This document shows, in pieces, positions 15,505 to 39,451 of a stretch of DNA of 61,706 nucleotides. The notes beneath the pieces were generated by a model. That model had not been told where the DNA came from. It was given only the letters and a program-made list of their open reading frames with translations, and did not search any database. Within the stretch, counting starts at the first letter, position 1. Every line of letters starts with the position of its first letter. The DNA is from an uncultured Bacilli bacterium (lineage in GTDB: Bacteria > Bacillota_I > Bacilli_A > RF39 > UBA660): the NCBI GenBank assembly GCA_947626035.1, contig CANQQR010000004.1, positions 1 to 61,706 of the forward strand, written 5' to 3'. A program made the translations under genes and the position numbers.

Positions 15505-15548
15505 AAATAAAATAAAAAGACAAAAATATCTTTACATATTCCTGTCTT
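15505..15548 (-). terminator. rho-independent terminator closing the paralog locus
   Basis: Coding strand AAGACAGGAATAT-GUAAAG-AUAUUUUUGUCUU (13 pairs including two G-U) followed by UUUAUUUUAUUU. Confidence 0.7.
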
Positions 15549-16137
15549 AAGGTAACTTAGTTGTACCCTCTTTATAAGTATCATTATAATATAATGTACT
15601 ACCAGTAGTATCAACATAAAGTGTTCCATCAAACTTCTTACCTTGACTCTCATTTTGATTAACACTAGTTTCAGGCAATTCCATAGTAAGACTATAAGTA
15701 ATAACTGTCTCACTCTCACTTGGTGGAAAACTCTTATCAACTATCACAATATCTTTTTGTTCTCCACTACTATCTAACTCTATCTCTCCAACTGCACCAG
15801 AACCCTCAGTCTCACTAGTAACACTAGCAACAAGCCCTGGCATAGTATTAGTATACATTAACTTAATCTTAATAGGCCTTGTAGCATCACTAGCACTACT
15901 AGTAATAGTAAACGTCTTAGTCTCTTTCCAACTAGGCTCAATATTAGTTGCAGTCTTAAAATCAGCACCACCATCAAACTTAATAACACCAACATTAGCA
16001 CTACCAACATTAATAACAGGCTCGCCAGTAGTATTCATTTTAGCAGTAAAATAAGCGAAAGTAACACCAATAACCGTAACAATAACAGTCGCAATAGTCA
16101 ACACAACCAATATAATCTCATGCTTTCTACTCTTCAT
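15547..16137 (-). CDS. diverged TasA/camelysin-like secreted protein (paralog I)
   Basis: N-terminus MKSRKHEIILVVLTIATVIVTVIGVTFAYFTAKM (TFAYFT motif). Mature part carries EPSWKETKTFTIT and NESQGKKFDG, homologous to the PGW and QQG islands of the cassettes. Confidence 0.7.
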   Translation of the reverse strand: MKSRKHEIILVVLTIATVIVTVIGVTFAYFTAKMNTTGEPVINVGSANVGVIKFDGGADFKTATNIEPSWKETKTFTITSSASDATRPIKIKLMYTNTMPGLVASVTSETEGSGAVGEIELDSSGEQKDIVIVDKSFPPSESETVITYSLTMELPETSVNQNESQGKKFDGTLYVDTTGSTLYYNDTYKEGTTKLP

Positions 16138-16154
16138 AATAATTCCTTTCCAAC

Positions 16155-16760
16155 TTACAAATTAGGACTACCCTTAGCAATTATCTTACCCTCAAAAACC
16201 TTTCCTTGTAAATTATTTTGATTTTCTCCATTATCAAGAAATTTAACAGTCAATGTATATCTATGAGTAACACCGGTATTAATAGTACCAGTACCAATAC
16301 TAGAACTAGCACTAGGAACAATAAGTTCTCCAGGAATAGTAACCACCCTATTAGTATCACTTATAGGAACATTAACATCTCCTCTAAAACTAGTACTACT
16401 TAAAGTATAAACAAACGACTCATCATTAATAGTATTCTTATCAACATACCAATACAAAGTATAATCTCCAATAGCATTCTCAACTTGACTAACATTAGCA
16501 ATAGTAAACACTAACTCTTGACTCCAACCAGGTTCAACACTATCTGCATTAATATCATTCTCAGCATAAAAAGTAGTCATAATCTCTGAAACAGCTTGCA
16601 TACCAACCTCACCATTAGTATCATTACCAACAACACCAGAAAGCCAAAAAGCATAAGTAGTACCAACACTTACTGATATAAATGATAAAACAGAAACAAT
16701 AGCATAAATATAACTTCTAATAGAAAGCTTTAAATCATCTCTACTCTTTTTATCTTTCAT
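16155..16760 (-). CDS. diverged TasA/camelysin-like secreted protein (paralog H)
   Basis: Start moved to ATG 16760 (GGTGA SD): MKDKKSRDDL.., TM, GTTYAFWLSG. EPGWSQELVFTIAN and NNLQGKVFEG islands. Confidence 0.65.
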   Translation of the reverse strand: MKDKKSRDDLKLSIRSYIYAIVSVLSFISVSVGTTYAFWLSGVVGNDTNGEVGMQAVSEIMTTFYAENDINADSVEPGWSQELVFTIANVSQVENAIGDYTLYWYVDKNTINDESFVYTLSSTSFRGDVNVPISDTNRVVTIPGELIVPSASSSIGTGTINTGVTHRYTLTVKFLDNGENQNNLQGKVFEGKIIAKGSPNL

Positions 16761-16966
16761 ATAATCACCATATCTTACATATATTACTATATAATATAAT
16801 ACCAATAATTCCAAAAAAAAACAATACCAAAAGAAAAAAACACGCAAAAAATTAAATGACCCAATATCACTCTAAAAATAAAATAATAACCCCAAATAAC
16901 AAAAAACACACACTTCTACTTCCCCAAATAGTAAATTAACTATGTTCTTTCTTTCTCTTATCTCTT

Positions 16967-17617
16967 CTATTCTTCAAATGGATTTTTTTCTGTTCCTTGT
17001 GGGTTATCATTATTGTAGTAAATAGTATCGCCACTTGATAACTTACATGAAACTGTCGCTGCAATACTTGCTCCTTGTTGTTCATTTTGAGGAACTTCTG
17101 TTTCCTTGAAAGTTATTTTATATTTGAAGTTATGTACTAAATCACTTCCACTAGCATCTATTGTTCCAGTTGCTAATGGTATTGTTTGTGAGCCACCTGT
17201 AATCTTTACACCATCGCCATCTCCAGTGAATGCTTCATCAAGTTTAGCACCAGTTCCAGCAGTTGCAGTTACATACAAATCAGTAAAAGCAGTTTTTCCA
17301 TCGACACCTGAGTCAGCAGAAGCAGTATTTGAAGTAACTTCTAAATTACATACATAGTTAAATGTACTTTGACCCTTTGTTGCTGTTATAGTTACTGTTT
17401 GATCTTTACTGTCCCAACCTGGTAATATTTTAGTACCAGTTACAGCAGCAGTTTCATACTTAATTGTTCCTAGTTGTGCTGCTCCAACTTCTACATTTGC
17501 AGGATTACCTTGCATTGTTGTAGTGAAATATGCAAATGTAGCACCGATTATAGCAACTAAAAGTGTAGCAATTCCAATTACTGATAAGAATATAGTTTGC
17601 CCTCTATTATCTCCCGT
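16967..17617 (-). CDS. cassette G: full-length secreted-protein frame lacking a canonical start (ACG at 17615-17617)
   Basis: The frame is open from the TAA at 17648-17650 down to the stop at 16967. It encodes ..TGDNRGQTIFLSVIGIATLLVAIIGATFAYFTTTMQGNPANV... I found no in-frame ATG/GTG/TTG upstream of the internal Met used by the ORF track. Confidence 0.6.
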   Translation of the reverse strand, partial: TGDNRGQTIFLSVIGIATLLVAIIGATFAYFTTTMQGNPANVEVGAAQLGTIKYETAAVTGTKILPGWDSKDQTVTITATKGQSTFNYVCNLEVTSNTASADSGVDGKTAFTDLYVTATAGTGAKLDEAFTGDGDGVKITGGSQTIPLATGTIDASGSDLVHNFKYKITFKETEVPQNEQQGASIAATVSCKLSSGDTIYYNNDNPQGTEKNPFEE

Positions 17618-17678
17618 CTCCTCCTCCCCACACTCATAAATAGTAAATTAACTATGTTCTTTCTTTCTCTTATCTCTT
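17516..17678. repeat. inter-cassette junction repeat (F 3' tail + G leader)
   Basis: Contains the leader block and ataaatagtaaattaactatgttctttctttctcttatct. Recurs at 18237-18409, 18932-19113, 19606-19787 and 20286-20453, with partial copies at 16925-16966, 20955-21041, 21345-21406 and 21905-22006. Confidence 0.9.
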
Positions 17679-18338
17679 CTATTCTTCAAATGGATTTTTT
17701 TCTGTTCCAGTTTGATTTTCATTATTGTAATAAAGTTCGCCTTTACCTGTTAACTTACATGAAACTGTTGCTGCGATAGTTGCTCCTTGTTGTTTATCTT
17801 GAGACTCATTTTTATCTTTGAAAGATATTTTGTATTTGAAGTTATGTTCTAAATCACTTCCATTAGCATCTATTGTTCCAGTTGCTAATGGTATTGTTTG
17901 CACAGCGCTTGTACCGTCTATTTGCACACCATCTTCACTTGAAGTTATAGCATTATCAATTTTAGCACCAGTTCCAACAGTTGCAGTTACATACAAATCA
18001 GTAAAAGCAGTTTTTCCATCAACACCTGAGTCTTCAGAAGCAGTATTTGTAGATACAATTAAATCACATTCATATTCGAATGTACTTTGACCTTTTGTTG
18101 CTGTTATAGTTACTGTCTTATCTGTACTGTCCCAACCTGGAAATATATTAGTAGCTTCTGTAACAGGTTCAGCAGAATAAGAAATAGTTCCTAGTTGTGC
18201 TGCTCCAACATTTACATTTGCTGCTTTACCTTGCATTGTTGTAGTGAAATATGCAAATGTAGCACCGATTATAGCAACTAAAAGTGTAGCAATTCCAATT
18301 ACTGATAAGAATATAGTTTGCCCTCTATTATCTCTCGT
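17679..18338 (-). CDS. cassette F: full-length frame, ACG at 18336-18338
   Basis: Same leader. The mature region is closely related to cassette G (TVTITATKGQSTFxYxC.L, TAFTDLYVTAT, tail YYNNxNxxGTEKNPFEE). Confidence 0.6.
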   Translation of the reverse strand, partial: TRDNRGQTIFLSVIGIATLLVAIIGATFAYFTTTMQGKAANVNVGAAQLGTISYSAEPVTEATNIFPGWDSTDKTVTITATKGQSTFEYECDLIVSTNTASEDSGVDGKTAFTDLYVTATVGTGAKIDNAITSSEDGVQIDGTSAVQTIPLATGTIDANGSDLEHNFKYKISFKDKNESQDKQQGATIAATVSCKLTGKGELYYNNENQTGTEKNPFEE

Positions 18339-18409
18339 TTCTTCCTCTCCACACCCATAAATAGTAAATTAACTATGTTCTTTCTTTATTTATTTATTTT
18401 TGCTCGTTA
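18237..18409. repeat. inter-cassette junction repeat (E/F)
   Basis: See 17516-17678. The 3' element is partly diverged here (..ctttctttatttatttatttttgctcg). Confidence 0.85.
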
Positions 18410-19033
18410 TTAATGACTTTGTTCTGTGAAATGTTGTCCATCTTCTTCGCCAGATAGCTTACATGAAACTGTTGCAGCAATATTAGCTCCTTGTTGTTCA
18501 TTTTGAGACTTATTTGTATCTTTGAAAGTTAATTTATATGTGAAGTTATGTATTAAAGTAGTTCCATTAGCATCAATTGAACCAGTCGCTAATTTTATTG
18601 TTTGTGGTGCTTCTGTAGCTTCTATCTTTACCCCATCGCCTTGAGTTAATCCAGTTTCAACAGTTGCACCAGTTCCAGCAGTTGCAGTTACATATAAATC
18701 AGTAAAAGCAGTAGCTCCATCAACACCTTCAGCTGCAGCAGTATTTGAAGATACGACTAAATTACATTCATATTCAAATGTACCATTACCTTTAGTAGCA
18801 GTTATTGTTACTGTTTGATCTTTACTGTCCCAACCTGGAAATATATTAGAACCAGTTACAGCAGCAGCAGTAAAACTAATACTTCCTAATTGTGCAGCAT
18901 TCACAGTTACATCTTTTGCTTGTCCTTGCATTGTTGTAGTGAAATATGCAAATGTAGCACCGATTATAGCAACTAAAAGTGTAGCAATTCCAATTACTGA
19001 TAAGAATATAGTTTGCCCTCTATTATCTCCCGT
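18410..19033 (-). CDS. cassette E: full-length frame, ACG at 19031-19033
   Basis: Same leader. Mature region of the E/F/G subfamily with a unique C-terminal tail (..SGEEDGQHFTEQSH). Confidence 0.6.
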   Translation of the reverse strand, partial: TGDNRGQTIFLSVIGIATLLVAIIGATFAYFTTTMQGQAKDVTVNAAQLGSISFTAAAVTGSNIFPGWDSKDQTVTITATKGNGTFEYECNLVVSSNTAAAEGVDGATAFTDLYVTATAGTGATVETGLTQGDGVKIEATEAPQTIKLATGSIDANGTTLIHNFTYKLTFKDTNKSQNEQQGANIAATVSCKLSGEEDGQHFTEQSH

Positions 19034-19113
19034 CTCCTCCCCTCCACACCCATAAATAGTAAATTAACTATGTTCTTTCTTTCTCTTATCTCGTTTTGCT
19101 TATTATTGTTGGT
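18932..19113. repeat. inter-cassette junction repeat (D/E)
   Basis: See 17516-17678. Confidence 0.9.
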
Positions 19114-19707
19114 CTATTGACCTTTTTGTTGTGAATCTGTGTATTTTGCTTCGCCTGATAGCTTACATGTTACTTGTCCAGCAATGTTTCCACCTTGTTG
19201 CTCATTTTGTTCTTCATCATCTTTGAAAGCTAGTTTATAAGTAATTGTATGTATTGCTTGTTCTCCAGTTGTTTCTATAGTACCATGTGCTATTTTTAAT
19301 GTTTGAACACCTTCTGCTCCATCAGCTGAACTTATTTGTTTACCTTCGCCAGAAAAGCCATCTTCAATTGTAGCATTAGAAGACTCAGCACTAAAATACA
19401 AATCGGTAAATTTAGTATTTGCTGTCACTTCTAAATTACATTCATAATCAAATTTACCTGCACCACCTGCAGCAACAGTTATTGTTGCGGTTCCTGTCTT
19501 CTCCCAACCTGGAAATATATTAGAATCTGTTATTCCAGTTGCAGTATAAGTAATTGTAGGTAATGTTGCTGAACCAACATTAATATCGCCTTGAGTTCCT
19601 GTCATTGTTGTAGTGAAATATGCAAATGTAGCACCGATTATAGCAACTAAAAGTGTAGCAATTCCAATTACTGATAAGAATATAGTTTGCCCTCTATTAT
19701 CTCCCGT
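19114..19707 (-). CDS. cassette D: full-length frame, ACG at 19705-19707
   Basis: Same leader. The mature region is near-identical to cassette C over long stretches. Tail GEAKYTDSQQKGQ. Confidence 0.6.
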   Translation of the reverse strand, partial: TGDNRGQTIFLSVIGIATLLVAIIGATFAYFTTTMTGTQGDINVGSATLPTITYTATGITDSNIFPGWEKTGTATITVAAGGAGKFDYECNLEVTANTKFTDLYFSAESSNATIEDGFSGEGKQISSADGAEGVQTLKIAHGTIETTGEQAIHTITYKLAFKDDEEQNEQQGGNIAGQVTCKLSGEAKYTDSQQKGQ

Positions 19708-19787
19708 CTCCTCCCCTCCACACCCATAAATAGTAAATTAACTATGTTCTTTCTTTCTCTTATCTCGTTTTGCTTATTATTGTTGGT
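19606..19787. repeat. inter-cassette junction repeat (C/D)
   Basis: See 17516-17678. Confidence 0.9.
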
Positions 19788-20402
19788 CTATTGACCTTTT
19801 TGTTGTGAATCTGTGTATTTTGCTTCCCCAGATAACTTACATGTTACAGCACCAACAATACTACCGCCTTCTTGTGAAGTTTGAGGCTCATCTGTATCTT
19901 TAAAAGTTAGTTTATAAGTAATTGTATGTGTTGCTTCTGTTCCAGTTGTTTCTATAGTTCCGCTTGCTATTTTTAAAGTTTGAACGCCCTCTTCTCCGTC
20001 AGCAGAACTTATTTGTTTACCTTCGCCAGAAAAACCAGATTCAATTGTTGCATCAGAAGATTCAGCACTAAAATACAAATCAGTAAATTTAGTGTTTGTT
20101 GTTACTTCTAGACTACATTCATACTCAAATTTACCAGCACCACCTGCAGCAACTTTTATAGTCGCAGTTCCTGACTCAGACCAACCTGGAAATATATTTG
20201 TGCCAGTCAAAGCAGTTGCAGTATAACTAATTGCTGGTAATGTCGCAGCTCCAACATTAATACTACCTTTTTGAGTTTCTTGCATTGTTGTAGTGAAATA
20301 TGCAAATGTAGCACCGATTATAGCAACTAAAAGTGTAGCAATTCCAATTACTGATAAGAATATAGTTTGCCCTCTATTATCTCCTGTCTCCTCCTCCCAC
20401 AC
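19788..20402 (-). CDS. cassette C: in-frame GTG (20400-20402) but no SD; ACA at the homologous start position
   Basis: MWEEETGDNRGQTIFLSV... The purine tract upstream is 1 nt shorter than in D-G, which brings the GTG into frame. Confidence 0.6.
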   Translation of the reverse strand: MWEEETGDNRGQTIFLSVIGIATLLVAIIGATFAYFTTTMQETQKGSINVGAATLPAISYTATALTGTNIFPGWSESGTATIKVAAGGAGKFEYECSLEVTTNTKFTDLYFSAESSDATIESGFSGEGKQISSADGEEGVQTLKIASGTIETTGTEATHTITYKLTFKDTDEPQTSQEGGSIVGAVTCKLSGEAKYTDSQQKGQ

Positions 20403-20453
20403 CCATAAATAGTAAATTAACTATGTTCTTTCTTTCTCTTATCTTATTTCTCT
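20286..20453. repeat. inter-cassette junction repeat (B/C)
   Basis: See 17516-17678. Confidence 0.9.
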
Positions 20454-21125
20454 TTAGTCTCCACTTTGATTACTTTGTGTATAATGAGCCTCGCCTGACA
20501 ACTTGCATATTACTTGTGCTACAAGATTACCCTCTTGTTGGTCGTTTTGGTTATCATTATTATCTTCAAAATCAATTTTATATTTGAAGTTATGAGATAC
20601 ACTATCACCAGTTGTTGTAATAGTTCCGCTTGCTAATTTTATAGTTTGAACACCTTCTGCTCCATCAGCAGAACTTAATGTTTTAGCACTTTGAACACCA
20701 GTATCAATTTCAGCACCTGTTCCAGCTGTAACTGTTAACTTTAAGTCTTTAAATTTTTCATTAGTAGTTACTTCTAGATTACATTCATACTCGAATGTAC
20801 CTGCACCACCAGCAGCAACAGTTATAGTAGCTGTTTTGTCTTCACTTGTCCAACCAGGGTATATATTACTTGCAGTTATAGCCTCAGCAGTATAACTAAT
20901 TGCTGGTAATTTAGCAGAACCTACATTAATTTTACCTTGATTTTCTCCTGTCATTGTTGTAGTGAAATATGCAAATGTAGCACCGATTATAGCAACTAAA
21001 AGTGTAGCAATTCCAATTACTGATAAGAATATAGTTTGCCCTACCGCCGGAGGGTAGTAAGTAGTAAATAAAACATATAAACAACTTATCAACAAAGAAT
21101 TAATTAAAACTACATACACATCCAC
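20454..21125 (-). CDS. cassette B: conserved leader from GQTIF onward, replaced 5' end
   Basis: Upstream of GGGCAAACT the shared sequence is replaced by ..TACTACCCTCCGGCGGTA.., a GC-rich 16-mer. The only in-frame start is the distant GTG at 21125, so the true start is uncertain. Confidence 0.5.
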   Translation of the reverse strand: MDVYVVLINSLLISCLYVLFTTYYPPAVGQTIFLSVIGIATLLVAIIGATFAYFTTTMTGENQGKINVGSAKLPAISYTAEAITASNIYPGWTSEDKTATITVAAGGAGTFEYECNLEVTTNEKFKDLKLTVTAGTGAEIDTGVQSAKTLSSADGAEGVQTIKLASGTITTTGDSVSHNFKYKIDFEDNNDNQNDQQEGNLVAQVICKLSGEAHYTQSNQSGD

Positions 21126-21315
21126 AACCTAATAACAAAGTATATAAAATATAAAATAATATCAACAACATATACACAACTAAATTAATAAACAAGTAAC
21201 ATAATTTTTAAATCAAAAGAAATATAAAAAACTTCTAAAAAACATTAAATAACATAAATGATTTTTAGAAGTTAAAATGCCCATAAAAAAAAGACCATAA
21301 ATAATCTTTATTTAC

Positions 21316-21335
21316 AGTCTTAGTTAGATAAGACT
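21316..21335 (-). terminator. hairpin after cassette A (possible partial or bidirectional terminator)
   Basis: AGTCTTA-N6-TAAGACT, a perfect 7-bp stem. The T-run is immediate only on the plus strand. A second 11-bp inverted repeat sits at 21231-21272. Confidence 0.35.
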
Positions 21336-21406
21336 AACTTTTTTATAAATAGTAAATTAACTATGTTCTTTCTTTCTCTTATCTCGTTTTGCTTATTATT
21401 GTTGGT

Positions 21407-22006
21407 CTATTGACCTTTTTGTTGTGAATCTGTGTATTTTGCTTCCCCAGAAAGTTTGCAAGTTACTGTAGCTGCGATGTTTCCACCTTGTTGCTCGTTT
21501 TGCTCAATTTCAGTATCTTTGAAGTCTAGTTTGTAAGTAAATGTATGTGATGTAGCACTTCCTGTAGCTTCAATTGTTCCACTTGCTAATTTTATTTCTT
21601 GAACACCTTCTTCTCCGTCTTCTGAACTTATTGTCTTTGGACTTTGAACACCAGCATCAATAGTAGCACCTGTTCCAGCTGTAACAGTTAATTCTAAATC
21701 TTTAAACTTAGTATTAGATGTTACATTTAGAGTACATTCATAAGCAAATTTACCTTTACCACTGTCGTCAACAGATATAGTTGCTGTCTTTTCTCCACTA
21801 GACCATCCAGGGTATATATCACTTGCAGTTATCGAATCAGCAGAATATGTGATTTTTGGTAATGTTGCAGACCCAACACTGATATTACCTTGAGTTCCTG
21901 TCATTGTTGTAGTGAAATATGCAAATGTAGCACCGATTATAGCAACTAAAAGTGTAGCAATTCCAATTACTGATAAGAATATAGTTTGCCCTCTATTATC
22001 TCCCAT
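21407..22006 (-). CDS. cassette A: TasA/camelysin-like secreted protein, canonical expression copy
   Basis: AAAGGAGG-N9-ATG. MGDNRGQTIFLSVIGIATLLVAIIGATFAYFTTTM signal, 199 aa. Own promoter upstream. Confidence 0.85.
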   Translation of the reverse strand: MGDNRGQTIFLSVIGIATLLVAIIGATFAYFTTTMTGTQGNISVGSATLPKITYSADSITASDIYPGWSSGEKTATISVDDSGKGKFAYECTLNVTSNTKFKDLELTVTAGTGATIDAGVQSPKTISSEDGEEGVQEIKLASGTIEATGSATSHTFTYKLDFKDTEIEQNEQQGGNIAATVTCKLSGEAKYTDSQQKGQ

Positions 22007-22034
22007 AGTTCTTTACCTCCTTTACTATATACAA

Positions 22035-22063
22035 TGATATCAATTTTTATTTATAAAAGCAAG
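22035..22063 (-). promoter_or_regulatory. sigma-A-type promoter for cassette A
   Basis: Coding strand TTGCTT (22063-22058), a 17-nt spacer ending TGA, then TATCAT (22040-22035), i.e. an extended -10. Confidence 0.55.
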
Positions 22064-22114
22064 CAAAAAATGCAAAATATTGTAAAAATATTTCCCACCA
22101 CACATAATTAACCA

Positions 22115-22156
22115 TACAAATATAACAAAGAGTGACTAATTGTTAGCCACTCTTTA
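22115..22156 (-). terminator. rho-independent terminator of the giant repeat-protein gene
   Basis: AAAGAGTGGCTAA-CAA-TTAGTCACTCTTT (13 pairs, one G-U) starting 6 nt after the stop, followed by GTTATATTTG. Confidence 0.7.
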
Positions 22157-22161
22157 TCACA

Positions 22162-25059
22162 TTATTCATTAACTTTAACTTGTAATCTTGTATAAAATAC
22201 CTTACCTTTATCAGCACTTTGGTCTTCATTAGTATTTTTAAATTCAAAAGTCAATTTATAAGTATGAGTTTCCCCAGCTTTAATAGTTACATCCTTAAGC
22301 ATCTCTAACCCATTGTCAGATGGGTAAGGAACTCTACCCTCATTTAAATCTACAATAGTTTCGTCATTTCTAGTAATACCATAATAAAGTCTATTCTTAA
22401 AATTAAACGTATTAACTATATCTGTCCAAATAATACTATAAGTAACATCAGTATCTCCCTCATTCTTAATAGTAAAATTCTTACTACCTTTCCATCCAGG
22501 CGCAATACTTTGGTCTTTAAGTTCAGTATCATCTAAGAAAGTTAAATTAAATGTATCTCCTTGACCAGTACCAATAACAACATCCTTTAAATCACTAGGT
22601 GCATTTTCTCCAGTCTCTATAGGGTACTTATCAACCTTACCATCTCTATCTGTATCAATATTTCCGTCAGGTGTTCCATCTCCATCTAAATCAACATTCA
22701 AATCAGGTTTACCATCTCCATCAATATCAACATTAACATCTGGTAATCCATCATTATTAGTATCACAATTCAAATCACACTTACCATCATTATTAGTATC
22801 TTGATTAGTTAAATTCTTATCTGGTTTACCATCTCCATTAGTATCAACATTAACATCAGGTACACCATCTTTATTCATATCTAAATTAGTATCAGGTTTA
22901 CCATCCTTATCATTATCAACATTAGTATCAGCCTTACCATCTCCATTAACATCAATATTAACATCAGGTGTTCCATCACTATCAGTATCGCAATTCAAAT
23001 CACACTTTCCGTCTCCATCCTTATCAACATTCAAATCAGGCTTTCCGTCTCCATCAGTATCTAAATTACTATCAACCCTACCATCATTATTATTATCACA
23101 GTTTAAATCACACTTTCCATCTCCATCTGTATCTTGATTAGCAGGATTATCATCAGGTCTACCATCTCCATTAATATCTATATTAGTATCAGGCCATCCA
23201 TCCTTATTAGTATCACAGTTTAAATCACACTTTCCATCTCCATTAGTATCTTGGTCAGTTAAATTCTTATCTGCTTTACCATCTCCATCAGTATCAACAT
23301 TAACATCAGGCTTACCATCCTTATCTAAATCCAAATTAGTATCAGGATTTCCATCTCCATTAGTATCACAATCTAAATCACACACACCATTACCATCAAT
23401 ATCAACATTCAAATCAGGAATACCATCTCCATTAGTATCACAATTAACGTCGCATACACCATCCCCATTAGTATCTTGATTACTCTTATTACTATCAGGA
23501 TTTCCATCTCCATTATTATCTAAATTAGTATCTGGTACACCATCCTTATTAGAATCAATATTAGTATCAGGTTTACCATCTTTATTAGTATCACAATTAT
23601 AGTCACAAATTCCATCATGATTAGTATCAACATTAGTATCAGGTTTACCATCTCTATCTAAATCTAAATTAGTATCAGGAATACCATCCCCATTATTATC
23701 ACAATTTAAATCACATACACCATCTTTATTAGTATCTTGGTCAGTTAAATTCTTATCTGGTTTACCATCTTTATTAACATCACAGTTAAAATCACACTTA
23801 CCATCTCCTGTAACATCAATATCAGTATCAACATTACCATCTTTATTATTATCACAATTTAAATCACACTTACCATTACCAGTAATATCAACATTAGTAT
23901 CAGGCCATCCATCTCCATTATTATCGCAATTCAAATCGCACTTACCATCTCCATCAGTATCTTGATTTAACTTATTCTTATCTGGCTTACCATCTCCATC
24001 CTTATCAACATTAACATCAGGATTACCATCCTTATTAATATCTAAATTAGTATCAGGATTACCATCTTTATTAGTATCACAATTTAAATCACACTTACCA
24101 TTACCACTAACATCAACATTAGTATCAGGCCATCCATCTCCATTAGTATCACAGTTAACATCACACTTACCGTCTCCATCAGTATCTTGATTTAACTTAT
24201 TCTTATCTGGCTTTCCATCTCCATCCTTATCAACATTAACATCAGGCTTACCATCTTTATTAATATCTAAATTAGTATCAGGTTTACCATCTCTATTAGT
24301 ATCACAATTTAAATCGCACTTTCCATCTCCATCTTTATCTACATTCAAATCAGGATTAGTCTCTCTACTATAATCTTTATTAAAAGAACCCTCTCCATAA
24401 TTATCTCCATTAGATAAATTCTTATCTGCTTTACCATCTCCATCAGTATCGCAGTTAACATCACACTTACCGTCTCCATTATTATCTACATTCAAATTAG
24501 GCTTCCTATCTCCTGTAGTATCACAATTCAAATCACAAATACCATCATTATCTGTATCTAAATTCAAATCTGGTATACCATCTCCATTAAAATCTAAATT
24601 AGTATCAGGCTTACCATCCTTATTAGTATCACAGTTAACATCACATACACCATCTTCATCATAATCTTGATTAATCAAATTCTTATCTGGCTTTCCATCT
24701 CCATCAGTATCTATATTAAAGAATGGAACCATAGTATCTCTATACCCAAGATTAATATCAGGTATACCATCATCATTAGTATCACAGTTAACATCACAAA
24801 TACCGTCTCCATCAGTATCAACATTCAAATCAGGCCATCCATCTCCATCAGTATCAATATTAAGCTTCAAATGTGCCTTTTGAAAATAATTCAAAACAGA
24901 CCAAGTAGACGCTATTGTTGCAAGCATAAAAAGCAACAATGCAAAAATAATCAAAATAACTCTCTTATTTTTCTCAGCCTTACTCTTAGGCTCCTCAAAA
25001 TAAAGCCCATCCTCTTCAATAATCTTTTTCTCTTCATCATTATAAGGCTCTTGTCTCAT
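22162..25059 (-). CDS. giant secreted/anchored Cys-rich calcium-binding repeat protein (thrombospondin type-3-like repeats) with C-terminal cassette-type beta-sandwich domain
   Basis: Start taken at ATG 25059 (AAGGTGA SD). N-terminal TM/signal ..ATIASTWSVLNYF. Dozens of DxDxDGxxDxN and CDxNCD units. The C-terminal ~160 aa carry APGWKGSKNFTIKN and DQSADKGKVF islands. Confidence 0.8.
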   Translation of the reverse strand: MRQEPYNDEEKKIIEEDGLYFEEPKSKAEKNKRVILIIFALLLFMLATIASTWSVLNYFQKAHLKLNIDTDGDGWPDLNVDTDGDGICDVNCDTNDDGIPDINLGYRDTMVPFFNIDTDGDGKPDKNLINQDYDEDGVCDVNCDTNKDGKPDTNLDFNGDGIPDLNLDTDNDGICDLNCDTTGDRKPNLNVDNNGDGKCDVNCDTDGDGKADKNLSNGDNYGEGSFNKDYSRETNPDLNVDKDGDGKCDLNCDTNRDGKPDTNLDINKDGKPDVNVDKDGDGKPDKNKLNQDTDGDGKCDVNCDTNGDGWPDTNVDVSGNGKCDLNCDTNKDGNPDTNLDINKDGNPDVNVDKDGDGKPDKNKLNQDTDGDGKCDLNCDNNGDGWPDTNVDITGNGKCDLNCDNNKDGNVDTDIDVTGDGKCDFNCDVNKDGKPDKNLTDQDTNKDGVCDLNCDNNGDGIPDTNLDLDRDGKPDTNVDTNHDGICDYNCDTNKDGKPDTNIDSNKDGVPDTNLDNNGDGNPDSNKSNQDTNGDGVCDVNCDTNGDGIPDLNVDIDGNGVCDLDCDTNGDGNPDTNLDLDKDGKPDVNVDTDGDGKADKNLTDQDTNGDGKCDLNCDTNKDGWPDTNIDINGDGRPDDNPANQDTDGDGKCDLNCDNNNDGRVDSNLDTDGDGKPDLNVDKDGDGKCDLNCDTDSDGTPDVNIDVNGDGKADTNVDNDKDGKPDTNLDMNKDGVPDVNVDTNGDGKPDKNLTNQDTNNDGKCDLNCDTNNDGLPDVNVDIDGDGKPDLNVDLDGDGTPDGNIDTDRDGKVDKYPIETGENAPSDLKDVVIGTGQGDTFNLTFLDDTELKDQSIAPGWKGSKNFTIKNEGDTDVTYSIIWTDIVNTFNFKNRLYYGITRNDETIVDLNEGRVPYPSDNGLEMLKDVTIKAGETHTYKLTFEFKNTNEDQSADKGKVFYTRLQVKVNE

Positions 25060-25331: not shown

Positions 25332-26213
25332 TCACTTCTGTTTCACTTTATTAGCCTTAACTTTCTCCTCTAATTCCTTTAATTTAATAGTATTAGTCTT
25401 CTCAATTTGCTCCTCAACATTAGTATAATTAAGCCCAAGCCCTATAACAAACACAAATGCTAAAATATAAAACCAAATCATTAAAACCACTATAGTACTA
25501 AGTCCAGCATAATAAACATTATAATGTGCAATATTCCTTATAAAAAACGAATAAATAAAAGTTGCTAAAAACCAAAATATAGTCGTAAACAAAGTCCCCT
25601 TAATAACATACTTACTCTTAATCTTCTCATCAGGTGCTATCACATAAATAAGTTTAATAAAATAATAAATAACTAACACAGTAAGTGGAACATACAAAAT
25701 TGGGTATAACAAATCAATACTATCAACAACTATATTATCAAAACCAATAGTCATAAAGAAATTAATAAGCTGTCTACCAAAAACAGGAACAATAAGTAAG
25801 AAAGTAAACAACATAAATATAAGAATAGTAATCAAAAAAGCCTTTAATCTTCTCTTAATAACATTATTACTCTTAATATTAAAAACAGTATTAGATGCAA
25901 CTATAATAGCATCACTTCCATTACTTGCTATAAAAAACGCAACTACCAAATAAACCAAAAAAGGTAACGAAAAACTATTCTCAGTAAACATAGGCATAAT
26001 CAAATTCATAAGATCTTCACTAAAATTCTTTGAAATAAACTCAGTAATATAAGAAATAGAAAGATTAAAAGAAGTTGCTATTAATATTATAATAGAAATA
26101 ATAGGTACACAAGAAAGCACAAAATAATATGCTAAAGAACTAGGAAGCGTTAATAACTCAGGTCTTCTAATAACTTCAATTAAATTATTAACAAATTTCT
26201 TGAACTTATCCAT
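25332..26213 (-). CDS. YihY/BrkB-family membrane protein
   Basis: 293 aa. SSLAYYFVLSCVPIISIIIL and 6 TM segments, typical of the YihY family. Confidence 0.75.
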   Translation of the reverse strand: MDKFKKFVNNLIEVIRRPELLTLPSSLAYYFVLSCVPIISIIILIATSFNLSISYITEFISKNFSEDLMNLIMPMFTENSFSLPFLVYLVVAFFIASNGSDAIIVASNTVFNIKSNNVIKRRLKAFLITILIFMLFTFLLIVPVFGRQLINFFMTIGFDNIVVDSIDLLYPILYVPLTVLVIYYFIKLIYVIAPDEKIKSKYVIKGTLFTTIFWFLATFIYSFFIRNIAHYNVYYAGLSTIVVLMIWFYILAFVFVIGLGLNYTNVEEQIEKTNTIKLKELEEKVKANKVKQK

Positions 26214-26216
26214 ACA

Positions 26217-38410: not shown

Positions 38411-38629
38411 TCAAGAATTACTTAAACTTATCTGTATATCTTTTGTAAGAACATCTGAATAAGAAAAACTTTTAACAAAATTAACAGTACTAAAAGTAAA
38501 CAAACATGGATAAACCTTTAAAATTTCTCCCTCATAATACTCATACTTATTTCTTCCAACATTCACTTTAATCCTAACCCTTTTACCAATAATCTTCTCT
38601 AACTCATTCTTAATTTTCTCTATATTCAT
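38411..38629 (-). CDS. veg: Veg protein
   Basis: 72 aa. IKNELEKIIGKRVRIKVNVGRNKYEYYEGEILKVYPCLF..SFSYSDVLT. Synteny with yabG and rsmA. Confidence 0.85.
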   Translation of the reverse strand: MNIEKIKNELEKIIGKRVRIKVNVGRNKYEYYEGEILKVYPCLFTFSTVNFVKSFSYSDVLTKDIQISLSNS

Positions 38630-39399
38630 GCATCCTCATTTCTAGGGTAACCAACATACATAGTACCCTTACACTTTAATCCACCCATCCCATCATGTCC
38701 ATACTTAGTCTTAGACAAAAGATTAAGTAAATCAATATCTTTACTCCTATCTAACAAACTAAGTGACGTTGCAATAATCGCAGGATCCAAAGCATGAATA
38801 TTTATTCTCTTAGGACTAGAAGCAAAAGTAGCACCACTCTTTATAAGCTCTTCATAATTACTCTGACACGCTCCCGCAATTATAATAAGTTTATCACTTG
38901 ACTTCTCAAACTTCCTTGCAACACTAACAGCCTTACAAAAACTCTCACTATTCTTATAATCACTATTAGAGTTCTCCCTAGCCTTATGATAAGCATCATG
39001 TCCAGTAATAATCAAAATATCAGGGTTATACTGATTCAAAAACTTAGGTAGCTCTTTATAAATCTCACTTTCCTTAACACACTTACCATATGCTAAAACA
39101 TTATTCTTTTTATAAAAATCCATACACCTACTTAAATAAGACTTATCAGCATCAATATGTAACACTTTCCCAGGTAAATAAAAATACTCATTCCTATCTA
39201 AATTCAAATCAATAAGAGGACAAAAATCATCTTTCATCTTACCCCTATCACAAACAACCAAATCTTGAATAGGCGCATCAGCACTTAACCTAACAAAAGC
39301 ACCCTTTAAATAACAAACATTACCTATAACACCTGTAACCTCAAAAACAATATCATTTGAATAACTCTTCCTAGTAACATAATCCCCCGTGTTAATCAT
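38626..39399 (-). CDS. yabG: sporulation-specific peptidase YabG
   Basis: GDYVTRKSYSNDIVFEV..LKGAFVRLSADAPIQDL.., ILIITGHDAY. Start at ATG 39399 (AGGGGG SD) rather than the ORF-track 39483. Confidence 0.85.
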   Translation of the reverse strand: MINTGDYVTRKSYSNDIVFEVTGVIGNVCYLKGAFVRLSADAPIQDLVVCDRGKMKDDFCPLIDLNLDRNEYFYLPGKVLHIDADKSYLSRCMDFYKKNNVLAYGKCVKESEIYKELPKFLNQYNPDILIITGHDAYHKARENSNSDYKNSESFCKAVSVARKFEKSSDKLIIIAGACQSNYEELIKSGATFASSPKRINIHALDPAIIATSLSLLDRSKDIDLLNLLSKTKYGHDGMGGLKCKGTMYVGYPRNEDA

Positions 39400-39451
39400 A
39401 AAATAACCCCCTAAATAAATATATGAAAAACTAAATAAAACATGAAAAAAA

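What the first reader, a model, noticed from the sequence alone, without database searches (positions are those of the whole stretch)
15547..25059. Ten-gene locus built on one beta-sandwich module with TasA/camelysin-type (SipW-dependent-like) signals, but no signal peptidase in the window
The array proteins and paralog I carry G(A/V)TFAYFT after an h-region, and paralog H has GTTYAFW. This closely resembles the conserved end of SipW-dependent signal peptides, as in camelysin CalY (GGGTFAYFSD) and TasA (GGGTWAAFND). The giant protein has a looser ASTWSVLNYF at the equivalent position.

All ten proteins share the PGW..T(I/V)T and (N/D)(E/Q)(Q/S)QG/KG islands. This implies one fold used in three formats: a giant Ca-repeat fusion, seven cassettes and two diverged singletons.

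TasA-family proteins form biofilm or pilus-like fibres, and Clostridium perfringens BsaA is another SipW-dependent example. No sipW-type signal peptidase, tapA-like anchor or sortase signal is present in these 61.7 kb.

An alternative reading is that the copy-A N-terminus MGDNRG|QTIFLSVIG.. is a short class-III (prepilin-like) leader lacking Glu+5.
Basis: partly seen in the sequence, partly recalled or inferred. Interest (0 to 1): 0.7.

Follow-up and report, generated by a model that had tools for sequence, protein, structure and literature searches.

The report
TasA-like fibre locus with silent cassettes
An uncultured gut bacterium carries a locus for secreted TasA-type biofilm or fibre proteins in which only the first of seven tandem major-subunit copies can be expressed, and the other six look like a stored set of variants that recombination could swap in.

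Summary
Ten minus-strand reading frames (15547-25059) share one beta-sandwich module, and each has a hydrophobic segment ending in GxT(F/Y/W)A(Y/F)(F/W).

The TasA/camelysin, SipW-dependent reading is supported:
- The window proteins score just under the curated thresholds.
- More distant members of the same large unnamed family pass Pfam Peptidase_M73 over nearly its full length.
- In 42 of 79 related genome loci an archaeal-type SipW-class signal peptidase gene is present, usually 1-2 genes downstream.
- The window and its closest clade have none nearby, so it must be encoded elsewhere.
- The prepilin reading is not supported.

Only copy A has a Shine-Dalgarno site and an ATG, and two terminator hairpins follow it. 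In C-G the spacer and ATG are deleted, and B has a foreign 5' end.

All six remain open reading frames. They share a 5' box of at least 90 nt that is 100% identical and a conserved 3' box. None of 206 homologous copies in other species lacks a start.

This is the layout of an expression site with silent cassettes (pilE/pilS-like). Switching itself was not observed.

The parts
22162..25059 (-). Giant protein (965 aa from the ATG at 25059; a GTG at 25098 is the longest ORF). It has an N-terminal hydrophobic segment ending in ASTWSVLNYF (about 24883-24960). About 750 aa of Asp/Asn/Cys-rich DxDxDGxxD-type repeats follow (about 22636-24643). The C-terminus is a TasA-like module (22168-22545).
   Evidence: hhalign E 1.2e-16 for residues 852-977; tandem repeats with periods of 36-486 nt; 36 Cys
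22127..22155 (-). Hairpin (AAAGAGTG...CACTCTTT) followed by a T-rich tail just after the giant gene's stop. It is a likely terminator, so copy A would have its own promoter.
   Evidence: sequence read; inference
22004..22023 (-). Shine-Dalgarno site AAAGGAGG, a 9-nt spacer and the ATG of copy A. This is the only canonical translation start in the seven-copy array and is almost identical to the start region of the orthologous gene in the CAG:628 relatives.
21407..22006 (-). Copy A, the expression-site gene (199 aa). The precursor begins MGDNRGQTIFLSVIGIATLLVAIIGATFA|YFTTT..., and the rest is a beta-sandwich domain.
   Evidence: Independent assemblies L001 and L167 are 100% identical here.
21230..21321 (-). 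Two successive hairpins, each followed by a T-run (about 21291-21321 and 21230-21273). They lie inside a unique 304-nt segment (21042-21345) that separates A from the rest of the array and replaces B's leader.
   Evidence: inverted repeat I2, 17-nt arms; folding energies -16.6 and -13.3 kcal/mol; the segment is unique in the window
20454..21041 (-). Copy B. The body is intact from the 5' box to the stop. The normal leader and start are replaced by the foreign segment, and the only in-frame starts are GTG or TTG codons about 30 codons further upstream than the family's normal start (21-32 codons before the hydrophobic segment) with no Shine-Dalgarno site.
19788..20387 (-). Copy C. The frame is intact, but ACA stands where the family has codon 2 and there is no ATG. 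An in-frame GTG five codons upstream has no Shine-Dalgarno site.
19114..19707 (-). Copy D. The frame is intact but has no start: the Shine-Dalgarno-like GGAGGAG abuts ACG, which corresponds to codon 2.
18410..19033 (-). Copy E. The frame is intact, it has no start, and it has the same leader as D.
   Evidence: The same startless leader is seen in the independent contig L007.
17679..18338 (-). Copy F. The frame is intact and it has no start.
16967..17617 (-). Copy G. The frame is intact and it has no start.
21902..21991 (-). The 5' homology box (GGGCAAACTATATTC...ACTACAACAATG), which encodes the signal-peptide hydrophobic region and the cleavage motif. At least 90 nt are 100% identical in all seven copies. 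The other copies start at 21041, 20372, 19692, 19018, 18323 and 17602.
21347..21380 (-). The 3' homology box (AAGAGAAAGAAAGAACATAGTTAATTTACTATTT), found after every array copy. In A, C and D it extends into a run of at least 101 nt that is identical (A-C 107 nt, A-D 101 nt, C-D 134 nt) and includes the last codons.
16155..16760 (-). Singleton H (201 aa), a diverged TasA-like minor paralogue with its own ATG. Its signal ends in GTTYAFW.
   Evidence: E 6.6e-26
15547..16137 (-). Singleton I (196 aa), a diverged TasA-like minor paralogue with its own Shine-Dalgarno site and ATG. It gives the window's best match to the SipW-cognate signal model.
   Evidence: (TIGR04088 18.5 bits, cut-off 19)

Best explanation
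**The locus**

This is the chromosomal locus for a TasA/camelysin-superfamily surface or matrix fibre. The organism is an uncultured, low-GC gut member of the Bacilli, and its closest named relatives are 'Clostridium sp. CAG:628'-type MAGs.

**How the proteins are made and assembled (inferred by homology)**
- The precursors are exported with a SipW-type signal.
- They are cut after GATFA, giving TFA|YF. This has an aromatic residue at P2' as in TasA, which is cut TWA|AF.
- The cutting enzyme would be an archaeal-type signal peptidase I encoded outside this window.
- The mature subunit is a disordered N-terminal stretch of about 20 residues followed by a beta-sandwich.
- By analogy with TasA and BsaA, that N-terminal stretch would insert as a donor strand into the next subunit and build a fibre.
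- H, I and the giant Asp-rich repeat protein, which ends in the same module, would be minor subunits such as a nucleator, anchor or tip.

**The major-subunit array (shown)**
- Copy A is a single expression site with a Shine-Dalgarno site, an ATG and two terminator-like hairpins after it.
- The six downstream copies B-G have lost their translation start but keep full-length open frames.
- Every copy is flanked by an identical 5' box of at least 90 nt and a conserved 3' box.

**The proposed function of the array (inferred)**
- RecA-type recombination through the two boxes, as gene conversion or deletion, would move a stored body into the expression site.
- This would change the exposed surface of the fibre, giving antigenic or phage-receptor variation.

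**Shown versus inferred**
- Shown: homology, anatomy, loss of starts, sequence homogenisation and the mosaic structure of A.
- Inferred: the cleavage site, fibre formation and actual switching.

**Confidence by part**
- About 0.85 for the TasA-like, SipW-dependent fibre locus.
- About 0.7 that B-G are not normally expressed.
- About 0.45 that they serve as a working variation reservoir.
For: **Homology to TasA/camelysin**
- The family is large and unnamed: 472 close hits and 3954 50%-identity clusters.
- Members that match the window-family profile at E 1e-21 to 1e-36 pass Pfam PF12389 at 23-42 bits, against a gathering score of 22.5, over positions about 10-188 of 196.
- In the distant set, 24 of 60 hit PF12389, 8 hit TIGR04088, 4 hit the BsaA model and 3 hit the TasA model.
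- hhalign of the family against TasA aligns the signal, GGTWAAF and PGD..K.F at E 7.9e-4.

**SipW linkage**
- 42 of 79 related loci carry a signal peptidase gene, mostly 0.7-2.3 kb downstream on the same strand.
- The six that were scanned score 86-100 bits on TIGR02228, above the cut-off.

**Structure**
- The AlphaFold2 model of the mature domain has pLDDT 83.6 and pTM 0.76.
- It is a beta-sandwich core with a disordered N-terminal stretch of about 20 residues.

**Silent copies**
- C-G have ACG or ACA where the relatives have codon 2, directly after the Shine-Dalgarno-like GGAGGAG.
- All 206 full-length copies in other species have a start. Only the same-species contig L007 shares the loss.
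- Two terminator hairpins follow A.

**Evidence that the silent copies are maintained**
- All six frames are open. Under neutral substitution at the observed divergence this has probability about 8e-8.
- dN/dS between copies is 0.27-0.72.

**Evidence of recombination**
- The 5' box is 100% identical in all 21 pairs of copies.
- Orthologues that encode the identical peptide average only 86% nucleotide identity.
- A is a mosaic: D-like just after the box, B-like in the body, and 100% identical to C and D over its last 101-107 nt.

**Reproducibility**
- Independent assemblies confirm the A site (L001) and the A-terminators-B-C stretch (L167) at 100% identity.
- L007 confirms the startless leaders.

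**Mechanistic precedent**
- Donor-strand assembly is established for TasA (PMC9674648), and donor-strand exchange plus lock for BsaA (PMC11580942).
Against: - The window proteins themselves stay below the curated Pfam and NCBIfam thresholds.
- Foldseek against the PDB returns only generic beta-sandwiches (FimG, IBDV VP2, a CLIPPER domain) with TM-score of 0.40 or less. TasA is not among the 50 best.
- HMM searches of the PDB do not reach TasA.
- No SipW gene was found in the window or in the closest clade's loci, so the peptidase is assumed rather than seen.
- No variant of the expression site was observed. A is identical in the three assemblies that cover it.
- The one structural variant is L007, where a C body sits in the D slot. 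It comes from a 3.8x assembly and could be a repeat-resolution artefact.
- All copies point the same way, and no dedicated recombinase is nearby.
- Simple crossover would delete cassettes irreversibly.
- Weak initiation at ACG, which has a GGAGG 7 nt upstream in D, E and G, cannot be excluded.
Confidence: 0.62

Rival explanations
1. The downstream copies are dead duplicates. A recent tandem amplification of a paralogue that had already lost its start left six pseudogenes with no function. The identical boxes would reflect only recent duplication or passive gene conversion.
For: - The copies have no start codon, no dedicated recombinase is nearby, and no switching was observed.
- dN/dS for the youngest silent pairs is fairly high: F-G 0.72, E-G 0.68.
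- The C-terminal tails differ and some look truncated (E ends ...EDGQHFTEQSH).
Against: - The bodies are 13-45% diverged, yet every frame is intact and all indels are multiples of three. The simulated neutral probability of this is about 8e-8.
- Family-invariant residues (PGW, QxxQG, two Cys) are retained in all copies.
- The flanks are perfectly homogenised while the bodies are not. That pattern fits diversity being maintained between homology arms.
Confidence: 0.22
2. All seven copies are expressed and co-assemble as a heteropolymer. B-G would be translated by non-canonical initiation (ACG, or GTG in C and B) or by coupling, from read-through or internal promoters.
For: - In D, E and G a GGAGG lies 7 nt upstream of the ACG.
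- Multiple TasA/BsaA paralogues in one operon are common, and heteropolymers have been proposed (PMC11580942).
- The open frames show constraint.
Against: - ACG is a very poor bacterial initiator (general knowledge), and C has ACA.
- F's Shine-Dalgarno-like site is degraded (GGAGAGGAAGAA).
- All 206 copies in other species use ATG at a fixed distance, so the family has no habit of non-canonical starts.
- Two terminator hairpins separate A from the rest.
- The distance between the upstream out-of-frame ATG and the frame varies by 1 nt between C and D. That suggests the stretch is not under frame constraint.
Confidence: 0.1
3. The proteins are type IV-like pilins. A prepilin peptidase would cut the short leader MGDNRG|Q, and the conserved hydrophobic helix would be retained as the filament core.
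For: - The leader xxN(K/R)G-Q and the 26-residue hydrophobic segment are almost invariant across genera whose mature domains are under 40% identical. This is typical of pilin N-termini and unusual for a cleaved signal peptide.
- AlphaFold2 predicts a long N-terminal helix followed by a beta-sandwich.
Against: - H, I, the giant protein and the minor paralogues of relatives lack the G|Q site but keep GxT(F/Y)A(Y/F)(F/W) at the end of the hydrophobic segment.
- There is no Glu at +5.
- No prepilin peptidase, pilus ATPase or platform protein appears among the scanned window ORFs.
- A SipW-type peptidase is the conserved neighbour in 42 of 79 loci.
- The family joins Peptidase_M73/TasA by profile.
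Confidence: 0.05
4. The array is an assembly artefact, with repeats mis-joined or over-expanded in a metagenome contig.
For: - The units share identical stretches of 90-300 nt.
- Short contigs from other samples break exactly at the boxes.
- L007 shows a different order.
Against: - Each unit has a unique body.
- The A-terminators-B-C stretch is reproduced at 100% identity over 2215 nt in an independent sample.
- The E-F order and the startless leaders are reproduced in another sample.
- The start-codon loss lies inside unique junction sequence, not at a repeat boundary.
Confidence: 0.05

Closest known systems
Bacillus subtilis tapA-sipW-tasA (TasA fibres) and B. cereus CalY/camelysin (Pfam PF12389)
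   Same: - Both have an N-terminal signal ending in G-x-T-(W/F)-A-(A/Y)-F with an aromatic residue at P2'.
- The order of conserved islands is the same: PG(D/W)..K.F.I early and Q-N-x-x-Q-G before the last strand.
- Both have a beta-sandwich preceded by a flexible N-terminal segment.
- Both have minor paralogues in the same locus.
- A dedicated archaeal-type signal peptidase sits next to the genes in many relatives.
   Different: - The window proteins are below the Pfam threshold.
- They are smaller (about 170 mature residues against 234) and lack TasA's helical insertions.
- They carry two conserved Cys.
- The signal peptide is almost invariant across genera.
- sipW is not in this locus.
- The major gene is a seven-copy array, of which six copies cannot start translation.
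- Structural similarity to TasA was not recovered by Foldseek.
Clostridium perfringens bsa operon (SipW, BsaA, BsaB, BsaC; PMC11580942)
   Same: - Both are remote TasA homologues in an anaerobic Firmicute.
- Both have several paralogues per operon.
- Both are SipW-type and have a large accessory protein in the locus.
- Some members of the window's wider family hit the BsaA model TIGR04090.
   Different: - The N-E-K isopeptide triad was not examined here.
- No von Willebrand A protein or type IV pilus genes are present in the window.
- Silent copies are not described for bsa.
Archaeal bundling pili (AbpA, PMC9245690) and related archaeal TasA-like filaments
   Same: Both are TasA-like donor-strand filaments processed by the archaeal-type signal peptidase class. 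Calcium-linked relatives have been described, and the giant protein here has Asp-rich DxDxDG-type repeats.
   Different: No direct sequence or structure match was obtained here. The host is bacterial.
Neisseria pilE/pilS and Borrelia vlsE silent-cassette antigenic variation
   Same: Both have one expression site with a promoter and start. Both have adjacent or nearby promoterless and startless copies with intact variable regions. Both have conserved flanking homology, and the expressed gene has a mosaic structure.
   Different: - The protein class differs: a TasA-like fibre rather than a type IV pilin or lipoprotein.
- Here the cassettes are complete (leader to stop) rather than fragments.
- All lie in direct orientation immediately downstream.
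- No switching data exist.
- No equivalent of the pilE G4 was shown. A G4-like motif occurs only at the D and E leaders.
Campylobacter fetus sap (S-layer) homologues
   Same: Both have several full-length, promoterless homologues that share a conserved 5' region used for recombination with a single promoter.
   Different: sap switching works by inversion of a promoter-bearing segment between oppositely oriented genes. Here all copies are co-oriented and lack the start codon as well as a promoter.

Membership tests
TasA/camelysin superfamily (Pfam PF12389 Peptidase_M73; NCBIfam TasA NF046066, BsaA TIGR04090) | The protein itself scores above the curated family threshold | tested here: not met
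   The best window scores on PF12389 are 15.1 bits (H) and 13.1 bits (A), against a gathering score of 22.5, and cover only the C-terminal motif. No window protein hits the TasA or BsaA NCBIfam models.
TasA/camelysin superfamily (Pfam PF12389 Peptidase_M73; NCBIfam TasA NF046066, BsaA TIGR04090) | Homology demonstrable through intermediate sequences | tested here: met
   P0229, P0265, P0160 and P0152 match the window-family profile at E 1.3e-23, 2.3e-21, 1.5e-34 and 3.0e-36 over nearly the full length. They score 41.8, 35.5, 23.0 and 23.2 bits on PF12389 over positions about 10-188 of 196. In the distant set, 24 of 60 members hit PF12389, 4 hit BsaA and 3 hit TasA.
TasA/camelysin superfamily (Pfam PF12389 Peptidase_M73; NCBIfam TasA NF046066, BsaA TIGR04090) | Jellyroll/beta-sandwich fold resembling TasA, with a free N-terminal donor segment | tested here: inconclusive
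   AlphaFold2 gives a confident beta-sandwich with a disordered N-terminal stretch of about 20 residues. Foldseek against the PDB gives only generic sandwiches (TM-score 0.40 or less), and TasA (5OF1, 8AUR) is not in the top 50.
TasA/camelysin superfamily (Pfam PF12389 Peptidase_M73; NCBIfam TasA NF046066, BsaA TIGR04090) | Polymerisation into fibres by donor-strand exchange | not testable with these tools
   No multimer prediction or experiment was available. This is inferred from TasA (PMC9674648) and BsaA (PMC11580942).
SipW-dependent signal peptide class (NCBIfam TIGR04088) | Match to the SipW-cognate signal model | tested here: inconclusive
   I scores 18.5 bits against a cut-off of 19, C scores 15.7 and B scores 15.4. 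Eight of 60 distant family members match at E of 0.01 or better. hhalign places GATFAYF on TasA's GGTWAAF.
SipW-dependent signal peptide class (NCBIfam TIGR04088) | A dedicated archaeal-type signal peptidase I (SipW class) is genetically linked | tested here: not met
   There is none in the 61.7-kb window or in the closest clade's loci. In 42 of 79 related genome loci a peptidase gene is present, mostly 1-2 genes downstream. The six that were scanned score 86-100 bits on TIGR02228. The feature therefore holds for the family but not for this locus.
SipW-dependent signal peptide class (NCBIfam TIGR04088) | Cleavage at the conserved motif by SipW | not testable with these tools
   This needs N-terminal sequencing or mass spectrometry and a peptidase knockout or co-expression.
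Type IV pilin / class III signal peptide proteins | A short leader ending in Gly directly before the hydrophobic segment, conserved in all subunits, usually with Glu at +5 | tested here: not met
   G|Q is present only in the major-subunit type. It is absent in H, I, the giant protein and the minor paralogues of relatives. Position +5 is Leu.
Type IV pilin / class III signal peptide proteins | Prepilin peptidase, assembly ATPase and platform genes in the locus or neighbourhood | tested here: not met
   No such Pfam families appear among the scanned window ORFs. The conserved neighbour in relatives is a SipW-type peptidase.
Silent-cassette antigenic variation systems (pilE/pilS, vlsE type) | A single expression site with promoter and start, while the other copies lack expression signals but keep intact variable regions | tested here: met
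   Only A has a Shine-Dalgarno site and ATG. C-G have lost the spacer and ATG, and B's leader is replaced. All six frames are open. Terminators follow A.
Silent-cassette antigenic variation systems (pilE/pilS, vlsE type) | Conserved homology blocks flank the variable region in both the expression site and the cassettes | tested here: met
   The 5' box is at least 90 nt and 100% identical in 7 of 7 copies. A 3' box follows every copy. Runs of 101-134 nt are identical between A, C and D.
Silent-cassette antigenic variation systems (pilE/pilS, vlsE type) | Different cassette-derived sequences are observed at the expression site among cells, strains or samples | tested here: inconclusive
   The A site is identical in the window, L001 and L167. 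A's mosaic make-up suggests past exchange. L007 has a C body in the D slot but may be an assembly artefact. No further same-species contigs were found.

The most novel reading that the evidence does not exclude
A gut commensal of an uncultured Bacilli lineage varies the surface of a TasA-type, donor-strand fibre by recombination. One expressed major-subunit gene would be rewritten from six adjacent full-length copies that lack a start codon. The recombination arms would be the DNA encoding the signal peptide (a 5' box of at least 90 nt, 100% identical) and a 3' box. This would be the first silent-cassette antigenic (or phage-receptor) variation system for the TasA/camelysin fibre class. It would also be an example in which an invariant signal-peptide coding sequence doubles as the recombination site.
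Probability: 0.4. Interest if true: 0.75.

Novelty: new variant of a known kind. Interest (0 to 1): 0.55.

Why it matters
TasA-type fibres are known mainly as biofilm scaffolds of Bacillus and Clostridium.

**A large unannotated family.** This work shows a large, unannotated branch of that superfamily: thousands of 50%-identity clusters, with no Pfam assignment among the 120 closest hits listed. It is the signature surface locus of abundant but uncultured gut Bacilli ('CAG:628', 'Tenericutes' or 'Mollicutes' MAGs). The usual operon partner is a SipW-class peptidase. That gives annotators a name and a testable processing model for these genes.

**A possible variation system.** The species-specific array adds a mechanism not described for this protein class. 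It has one expressible gene and six intact startless copies between perfectly homogenised arms. If it works as a variation system, it would point to immune (IgA) or phage pressure on the matrix fibres of commensals. It could be tested directly with long-read metagenomics.

**If the copies are only pseudogenes.** The locus would still be a clean natural example of concerted evolution confined to a signal-peptide coding segment.

Tried and rejected
**Searches that did not reach TasA**
- Profile searches of PDB sequences with the close (A2) and distant (A4) family alignments did not reach TasA. The best hits were CD22 and CopC at E above 0.01.
- hhalign of the close-family alignment against TasA found only the C-terminal motif at E 0.19.
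- Foldseek against the PDB was run with two models, the full precursor and the mature domain. Both gave only generic beta-sandwich matches, with FimG-type donor-strand pilins, IBDV VP2 and a CLIPPER adhesin domain on top. TasA was not listed.
- A literature search on the recurring hit TTHA1873 gave nothing useful.

**Attempts to locate the peptidase in the closest clade**
- A homologue search with a relative's SipW-type peptidase found 1147 hits. None carried an organism name, so it could not show whether the CAG:628 clade encodes one elsewhere.

**Attempts to find more contigs of the same species**
- An exact-match scan of JGI metagenomes for the leader found nothing.
- A protein-guided scan returned only other species, at most 46% identity.
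- Look-ups for the D and G products found no further contigs.

**Ideas considered and set aside**
- Programmed frameshifting from the 19-codon +1-frame ORF that starts at the ATG upstream of each cassette was considered. There is no slippery site, and the ATG-to-frame distance differs between C and D.
- A G-quadruplex recombination signal as in pilE was considered. A motif of four G-runs exists only at the D and E leaders.
- A literature search for silent cassettes in Firmicutes returned only Borrelia and Neisseria work.

**Provenance of query sequences**
- The SipW result was verified independently with NCBIfam.

Full report
**1. What is in the sequence**

Between 15547 and 25059, all on the minus strand, lie ten reading frames:
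- A giant protein (22162-25059).
- Seven tandem units of about 680 nt, A to G (21407-22006 down to 16967-17617).
- Two diverged singletons, H (16155-16760) and I (15547-16137).

- All seven array units encode ...IIGATFAYFTTT after a hydrophobic stretch.
- I has GVTFAYFT, H has GTTYAFW, and the giant protein has ASTWSVLNYF.

The common module is statistically solid.
- The last 126 residues of the giant protein match a profile of the family at E 1.2e-16.
- H matches at E 6.6e-26.
- PGW and Q..QG are near-invariant across the family.

The surroundings are housekeeping genes close to the replication origin region.
- Downstream of the locus lie LtaS, TilS, FtsH, ParA, ParB and YchF.
- Upstream lie a BrkB/YihY-family protein, a GGDEF protein, LigA and PcrA.
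- None of the ORFs of at least 110 aa that were scanned with Pfam is a signal peptidase, prepilin peptidase, pilus ATPase or sortase.
- tblastn with five SipW-type peptidases from relatives finds nothing in the window.

**2. What the proteins are**

Copy A belongs to a large family with no name.
- The word-indexed database gave 472 hits. None of the 120 hits listed carries a Pfam assignment.
- An exhaustive profile search gave 3954 50%-identity clusters.
- Record titles place the family in uncultured gut Bacilli, labelled 'Clostridium sp. CAG:628', 'Tenericutes', 'Mollicutes' or 'Mycoplasmatota' MAGs.

The locus is syntenic in the CAG:628 clade. The order there is LigA, two small ORFs, GGDEF, BrkB, two large proteins (738 and 554 aa), two major copies (192 and 196 aa), two minor copies (189 and 205 aa), then LtaS, TilS, FtsH, ParA and ParB.

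The window proteins themselves score just below curated thresholds.
- On TIGR04088, the SipW-cognate signal model, I scores 18.5 bits against a cut-off of 19.
- On Pfam Peptidase_M73, H scores 15.1 bits and A scores 13.1 bits against a gathering score of 22.5.

The link to TasA/camelysin is nevertheless firm through intermediates.
- Peptidase_M73 is by far the commonest weak hit among close relatives, in 24 of 62.
- More distant members match the window-family profile at E 1e-21 to 1e-36 over nearly the full length.
- Those same members exceed the Pfam gathering score over positions about 10-188 of 196. P0229 scores 41.8 bits, P0265 scores 35.5 bits, and seven more are above 22.5.
- Some of them also hit the BsaA and TasA NCBIfam models and TIGR04088.
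- hhalign of the diverse alignment against B. subtilis TasA gives E 7.9e-4. It aligns the signal peptide, GATFAYF on GGTWAAF, the following segment, and PGW..K.FTI on PGDKLTKDFQF.

Genomic context is decisive.
- In 42 of 79 related genome loci a signal peptidase gene lies within 10 kb.
- It is mostly 0.7-2.3 kb downstream on the same strand, giving a [major][minor][peptidase] order.
- Six of these peptidases were scanned. They score 86-100 bits on TIGR02228, the archaeal-type signal peptidase I class that includes SipW, against a cut-off of 51.85. They also give partial matches to the SipW equivalog.
- The window and its closest clade lack the peptidase in the locus, so it must sit elsewhere in the genome.

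Structure prediction is consistent but not discriminating.
- The precursor model has pLDDT 81, with a helix at residues 5-34 followed by a sandwich.
- The mature-domain model has pLDDT 83.6 and pTM 0.76. It is a confident beta-sandwich preceded by about 20 disordered residues.
- This is the behaviour described for the donor strand of monomeric BsaA and TasA (PMC11580942, PMC9674648).
- Foldseek against the PDB returned only generic sandwiches with TM-score of 0.40 or less, and TasA was not in the top 50.
- The structural test is therefore inconclusive.

**3. SipW-type or prepilin-type leader**

The major-subunit leader M-x-x-N-(K/R)-G-Q and the next 26 residues are almost invariant across genera whose mature domains share under 40% identity. 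That pattern recalls pilins.

Three points argue against a prepilin leader.
- The minor paralogues (H, I and the 186-199 aa proteins of relatives) and the giant protein lack the G|Q site.
- All of them keep GxT(F/Y/W)(A/S)(Y/F/W)(F/W/Y) at the end of the hydrophobic segment.
- There is no Glu at +5, no pilus machinery is present, and the conserved neighbour is a SipW-class peptidase.

Cleavage after TFA would give a small residue at -1 and -3 and Phe at P2'. This is the same arrangement as in TasA, where the aromatic P2' residue is the reason a SipW-type enzyme is needed (PMC10269814). I therefore favour TFA|YF.

The extreme conservation of the signal peptide remains unexplained at the protein level.

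**4. The array is not seven ordinary genes**

Only A has a canonical start: AAAGGAGG, nine bases, then ATG. This is almost base-for-base the start region of the first major gene of the CAG:628 relatives.

In C-G the in-frame sequence upstream of the conserved leader reads stop-FTIYGCGGEE-T-GDNRGQ... The Shine-Dalgarno-like GGAGGAG directly abuts ACG (ACA in C). This codon corresponds to codon 2 (Thr) of the second major gene of the relatives. The spacer and the ATG have been deleted.
- No ATG, GTG or TTG lies in frame, apart from a GTG in C that has no Shine-Dalgarno site.
- An ATG 20 nt upstream is in another frame and opens a 19-codon ORF.

B has lost the whole leader to a unique 304-nt AT-rich segment (21042-21345). 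That segment begins with two hairpins, each followed by a T-run. A is therefore followed by tandem terminator-like structures.

The loss of starts is exceptional for the family.
- There are 209 full-length leader-bearing copies in 143 loci outside the window.
- The only three without a start are in L007, a contig of the same species from another sample.
- The other 206 copies all have a start, and ATG lies at a fixed distance of 8-10 codons in every copy inspected individually.
- Elsewhere the maximum copy number per locus is four.

**5. Signs that the silent copies are maintained and recombine**

- *The frames are maintained.* All six silent copies keep full open frames of 193-215 codons (from the 5' box to the stop) in a 28.5% GC genome, although their bodies differ by 13-45%. 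Substitution-only simulations at the observed divergence give 4-14% survival per copy, about 8e-8 jointly. dN/dS between copies is 0.27-0.72, and family-invariant residues are kept. Variation is modestly higher outside predicted strands (p 0.04) and alternates within strands.
- *The 5' arm is homogenised.* A 5' box of at least 90 nt, encoding Gly6 to Met35, is 100% identical in all 21 pairs of copies. Copies in other genomes that encode the identical peptide average only 86% nucleotide identity to it. Paralogues within other genomes are mostly 87-97% identical. The identity is therefore DNA homogenisation, not protein-level selection alone.
- *The 3' arm is conserved.* A 3' box (AAGAGAAAGAAAGAACATAGTTAATTTACTATTT) follows every copy, including A, before the terminator segment. 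A, C and D share identical runs of 101-134 nt that span the last codons and the intergenic box.
- *A is a mosaic.* It is closest to D just after the box, to B through most of the body, and identical to C and D at the 3' end.
- *Independent assemblies agree.* L001 confirms the A site. L167 confirms A, the terminators, B and C at 100% over 2215 nt. L007 confirms the E-F order and the startless leaders.
- *One structural variant is ambiguous.* In L007 the slot that holds D in the window (D-type leader, followed by E) contains a body 100% identical to C. This is what a cassette-to-cassette conversion bounded by the two boxes would produce. In a 3.8x short-read assembly it could equally be a wrong path through the repeat graph, so I do not count it as proof.

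**6. Most likely mechanism**

These steps are shown:
- The proteins are TasA/camelysin-superfamily members with SipW-class signals.
- The family is normally linked to a SipW-class peptidase.
- In this species one major-subunit gene is expressible.
- Six intact copies lack starts and lie beyond terminator-like hairpins.
- The flanks are homogenised, and A is a mosaic.

These steps are inferred:
- Export through Sec.
- Cleavage at TFA|YF by a peptidase encoded elsewhere.
- Polymerisation by donor-strand exchange of the flexible N-terminal segment.
- Roles for H, I and the giant protein as nucleator, anchor or tip. The giant protein has a signal, about 750 residues of DxDxDGxxD-type Asp/Cys repeats and a C-terminal acceptor-type module.
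- Replacement of A's variable body by homologous recombination through the two boxes, which would vary the fibre surface.

The adjacent, syntenically conserved GGDEF protein hints at c-di-GMP control, but this was not tested.

**7. Rivals**

- *Pseudogene remnants (0.22).* This fits the lack of observed switching and the higher dN/dS of the youngest pairs. It does not fit six intact frames between perfectly conserved arms.
- *Expression of all copies through ACG or other non-canonical starts (0.10).* In D, E and G a GGAGG lies 7 nt before the ACG. Against it, C has ACA, F's site is degraded, the family otherwise always uses ATG, and terminators intervene.
- *Type IV-like pilins (0.05).* The reasons against are given in section 3.
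- *Assembly artefact (0.05).* The independent contigs argue against it.

**8. Comparison and novelty**

As a protein family this is a divergent branch of a known kind, the TasA/CalY/BsaA class. The BsaA study already noted that the TasA family is broad and that operons often hold several paralogues (PMC11580942).

As a locus it differs from the tapA-sipW-tasA and bsa operons in two ways.
- The peptidase is unlinked.
- The major gene forms an array of one expressed copy and six silent copies.

That layout is the hallmark of pilE/pilS-, vlsE- or sap-type variation systems. I found no description of it for TasA-like fibres or for these gut lineages.

I rate it a new variant of a known kind.
- Interest is clearly higher for the silent-cassette architecture, which remains a hypothesis until switching is seen.

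Noticed in passing
window 25332-28229 (minus strand): A BrkB/YihY-family membrane protein and a 670-aa GGDEF diguanylate cyclase with a periplasmic binding-protein-like region lie immediately upstream of the fibre locus. The same pair is in the same position in the CAG:628 relatives. This suggests c-di-GMP control of the fibre genes.
   Followed up: no
window 19051 and 19725 (minus strand), leaders of copies E and D: The only two G-quadruplex-like motifs (four runs of at least three G, loops of 12 nt or less) in the whole 28.5% GC window are the leaders GGGTGTGGAGGGGAGGAGACGGGAGATAATAGAGGG of D and E. A G4 is needed for pilE variation in Neisseria. Here the motif is absent from A, C, F and G, so its meaning is unclear.
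   Followed up: partly
window 21902-21991 and all homologues: The signal peptide of the major subunit, (N/D/E)N(K/R)GQTIFLSVIGIATLLVAIIGATFAYF, is almost invariant across genera whose mature domains are under 40% identical. This is far more conserved than cleaved signal peptides usually are. No explanation was established. Possibilities include specific recognition by the peptidase, a membrane-retained function, or a recombination arm.
   Followed up: partly
window about 17617-17640, 18338-18361, 19033-19056, 19707-19730 (minus strand): Upstream of each of D, E, F and G an out-of-frame ATG opens a conserved 19-codon ORF (MGVEGRRREIIEGKLYSYQ*), which overlaps the cassette leader. It has no Shine-Dalgarno site, and in C it is shortened by a 1-nt deletion. 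It is probably a relic.
   Followed up: partly
L058 18207-19874, also L051 and L060: Some relatives carry a second SipW-type peptidase gene about 8 kb downstream. It is preceded by a 364-aa protein whose hydrophobic N-terminus ends in ASYAWFTEN. This looks like a second TasA-like system in the same neighbourhood.
   Followed up: no
window 22636-24643 (giant protein repeats): The repeat region has 36 Cys arranged as CD(L/V)NCD pairs inside DxDxDGxxD-type Asp-rich units, with nested DNA periods of 36 to 486 nt. No Pfam repeat family matched. The NCBIfam hits to Sdr/Clf adhesins are compositional. Calcium binding is plausible but untested.
   Followed up: no
family consensus, e.g. P0079 ...TLSFPETGADQ...: Most family members, though not the window's array copies, have FPETG just before the conserved QNxQQG island. 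It resembles a sortase LPXTG motif, but it is internal, inside the beta-sandwich, and has no hydrophobic tail. It is probably a coincidence.
   Followed up: no
window 38626-39483 and 40243-40857: A YabG sporulation peptidase (E 1.4e-81) and a weak SleB-type cell-wall hydrolase hit are present. This lineage is labelled 'Tenericutes' or 'Mollicutes' in several public records, but it appears to be a walled organism (LtaS is present) with sporulation-related genes.
   Followed up: no
window 53736-55922, 58398-59333, 60285-61541: There is a DNA polymerase III alpha-like ORF of only 728 aa, which may be truncated or split. A Fic-domain protein with an HTH and a DDE transposase lie near the window end. 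This may be a mobile or rearranged region.
   Followed up: no
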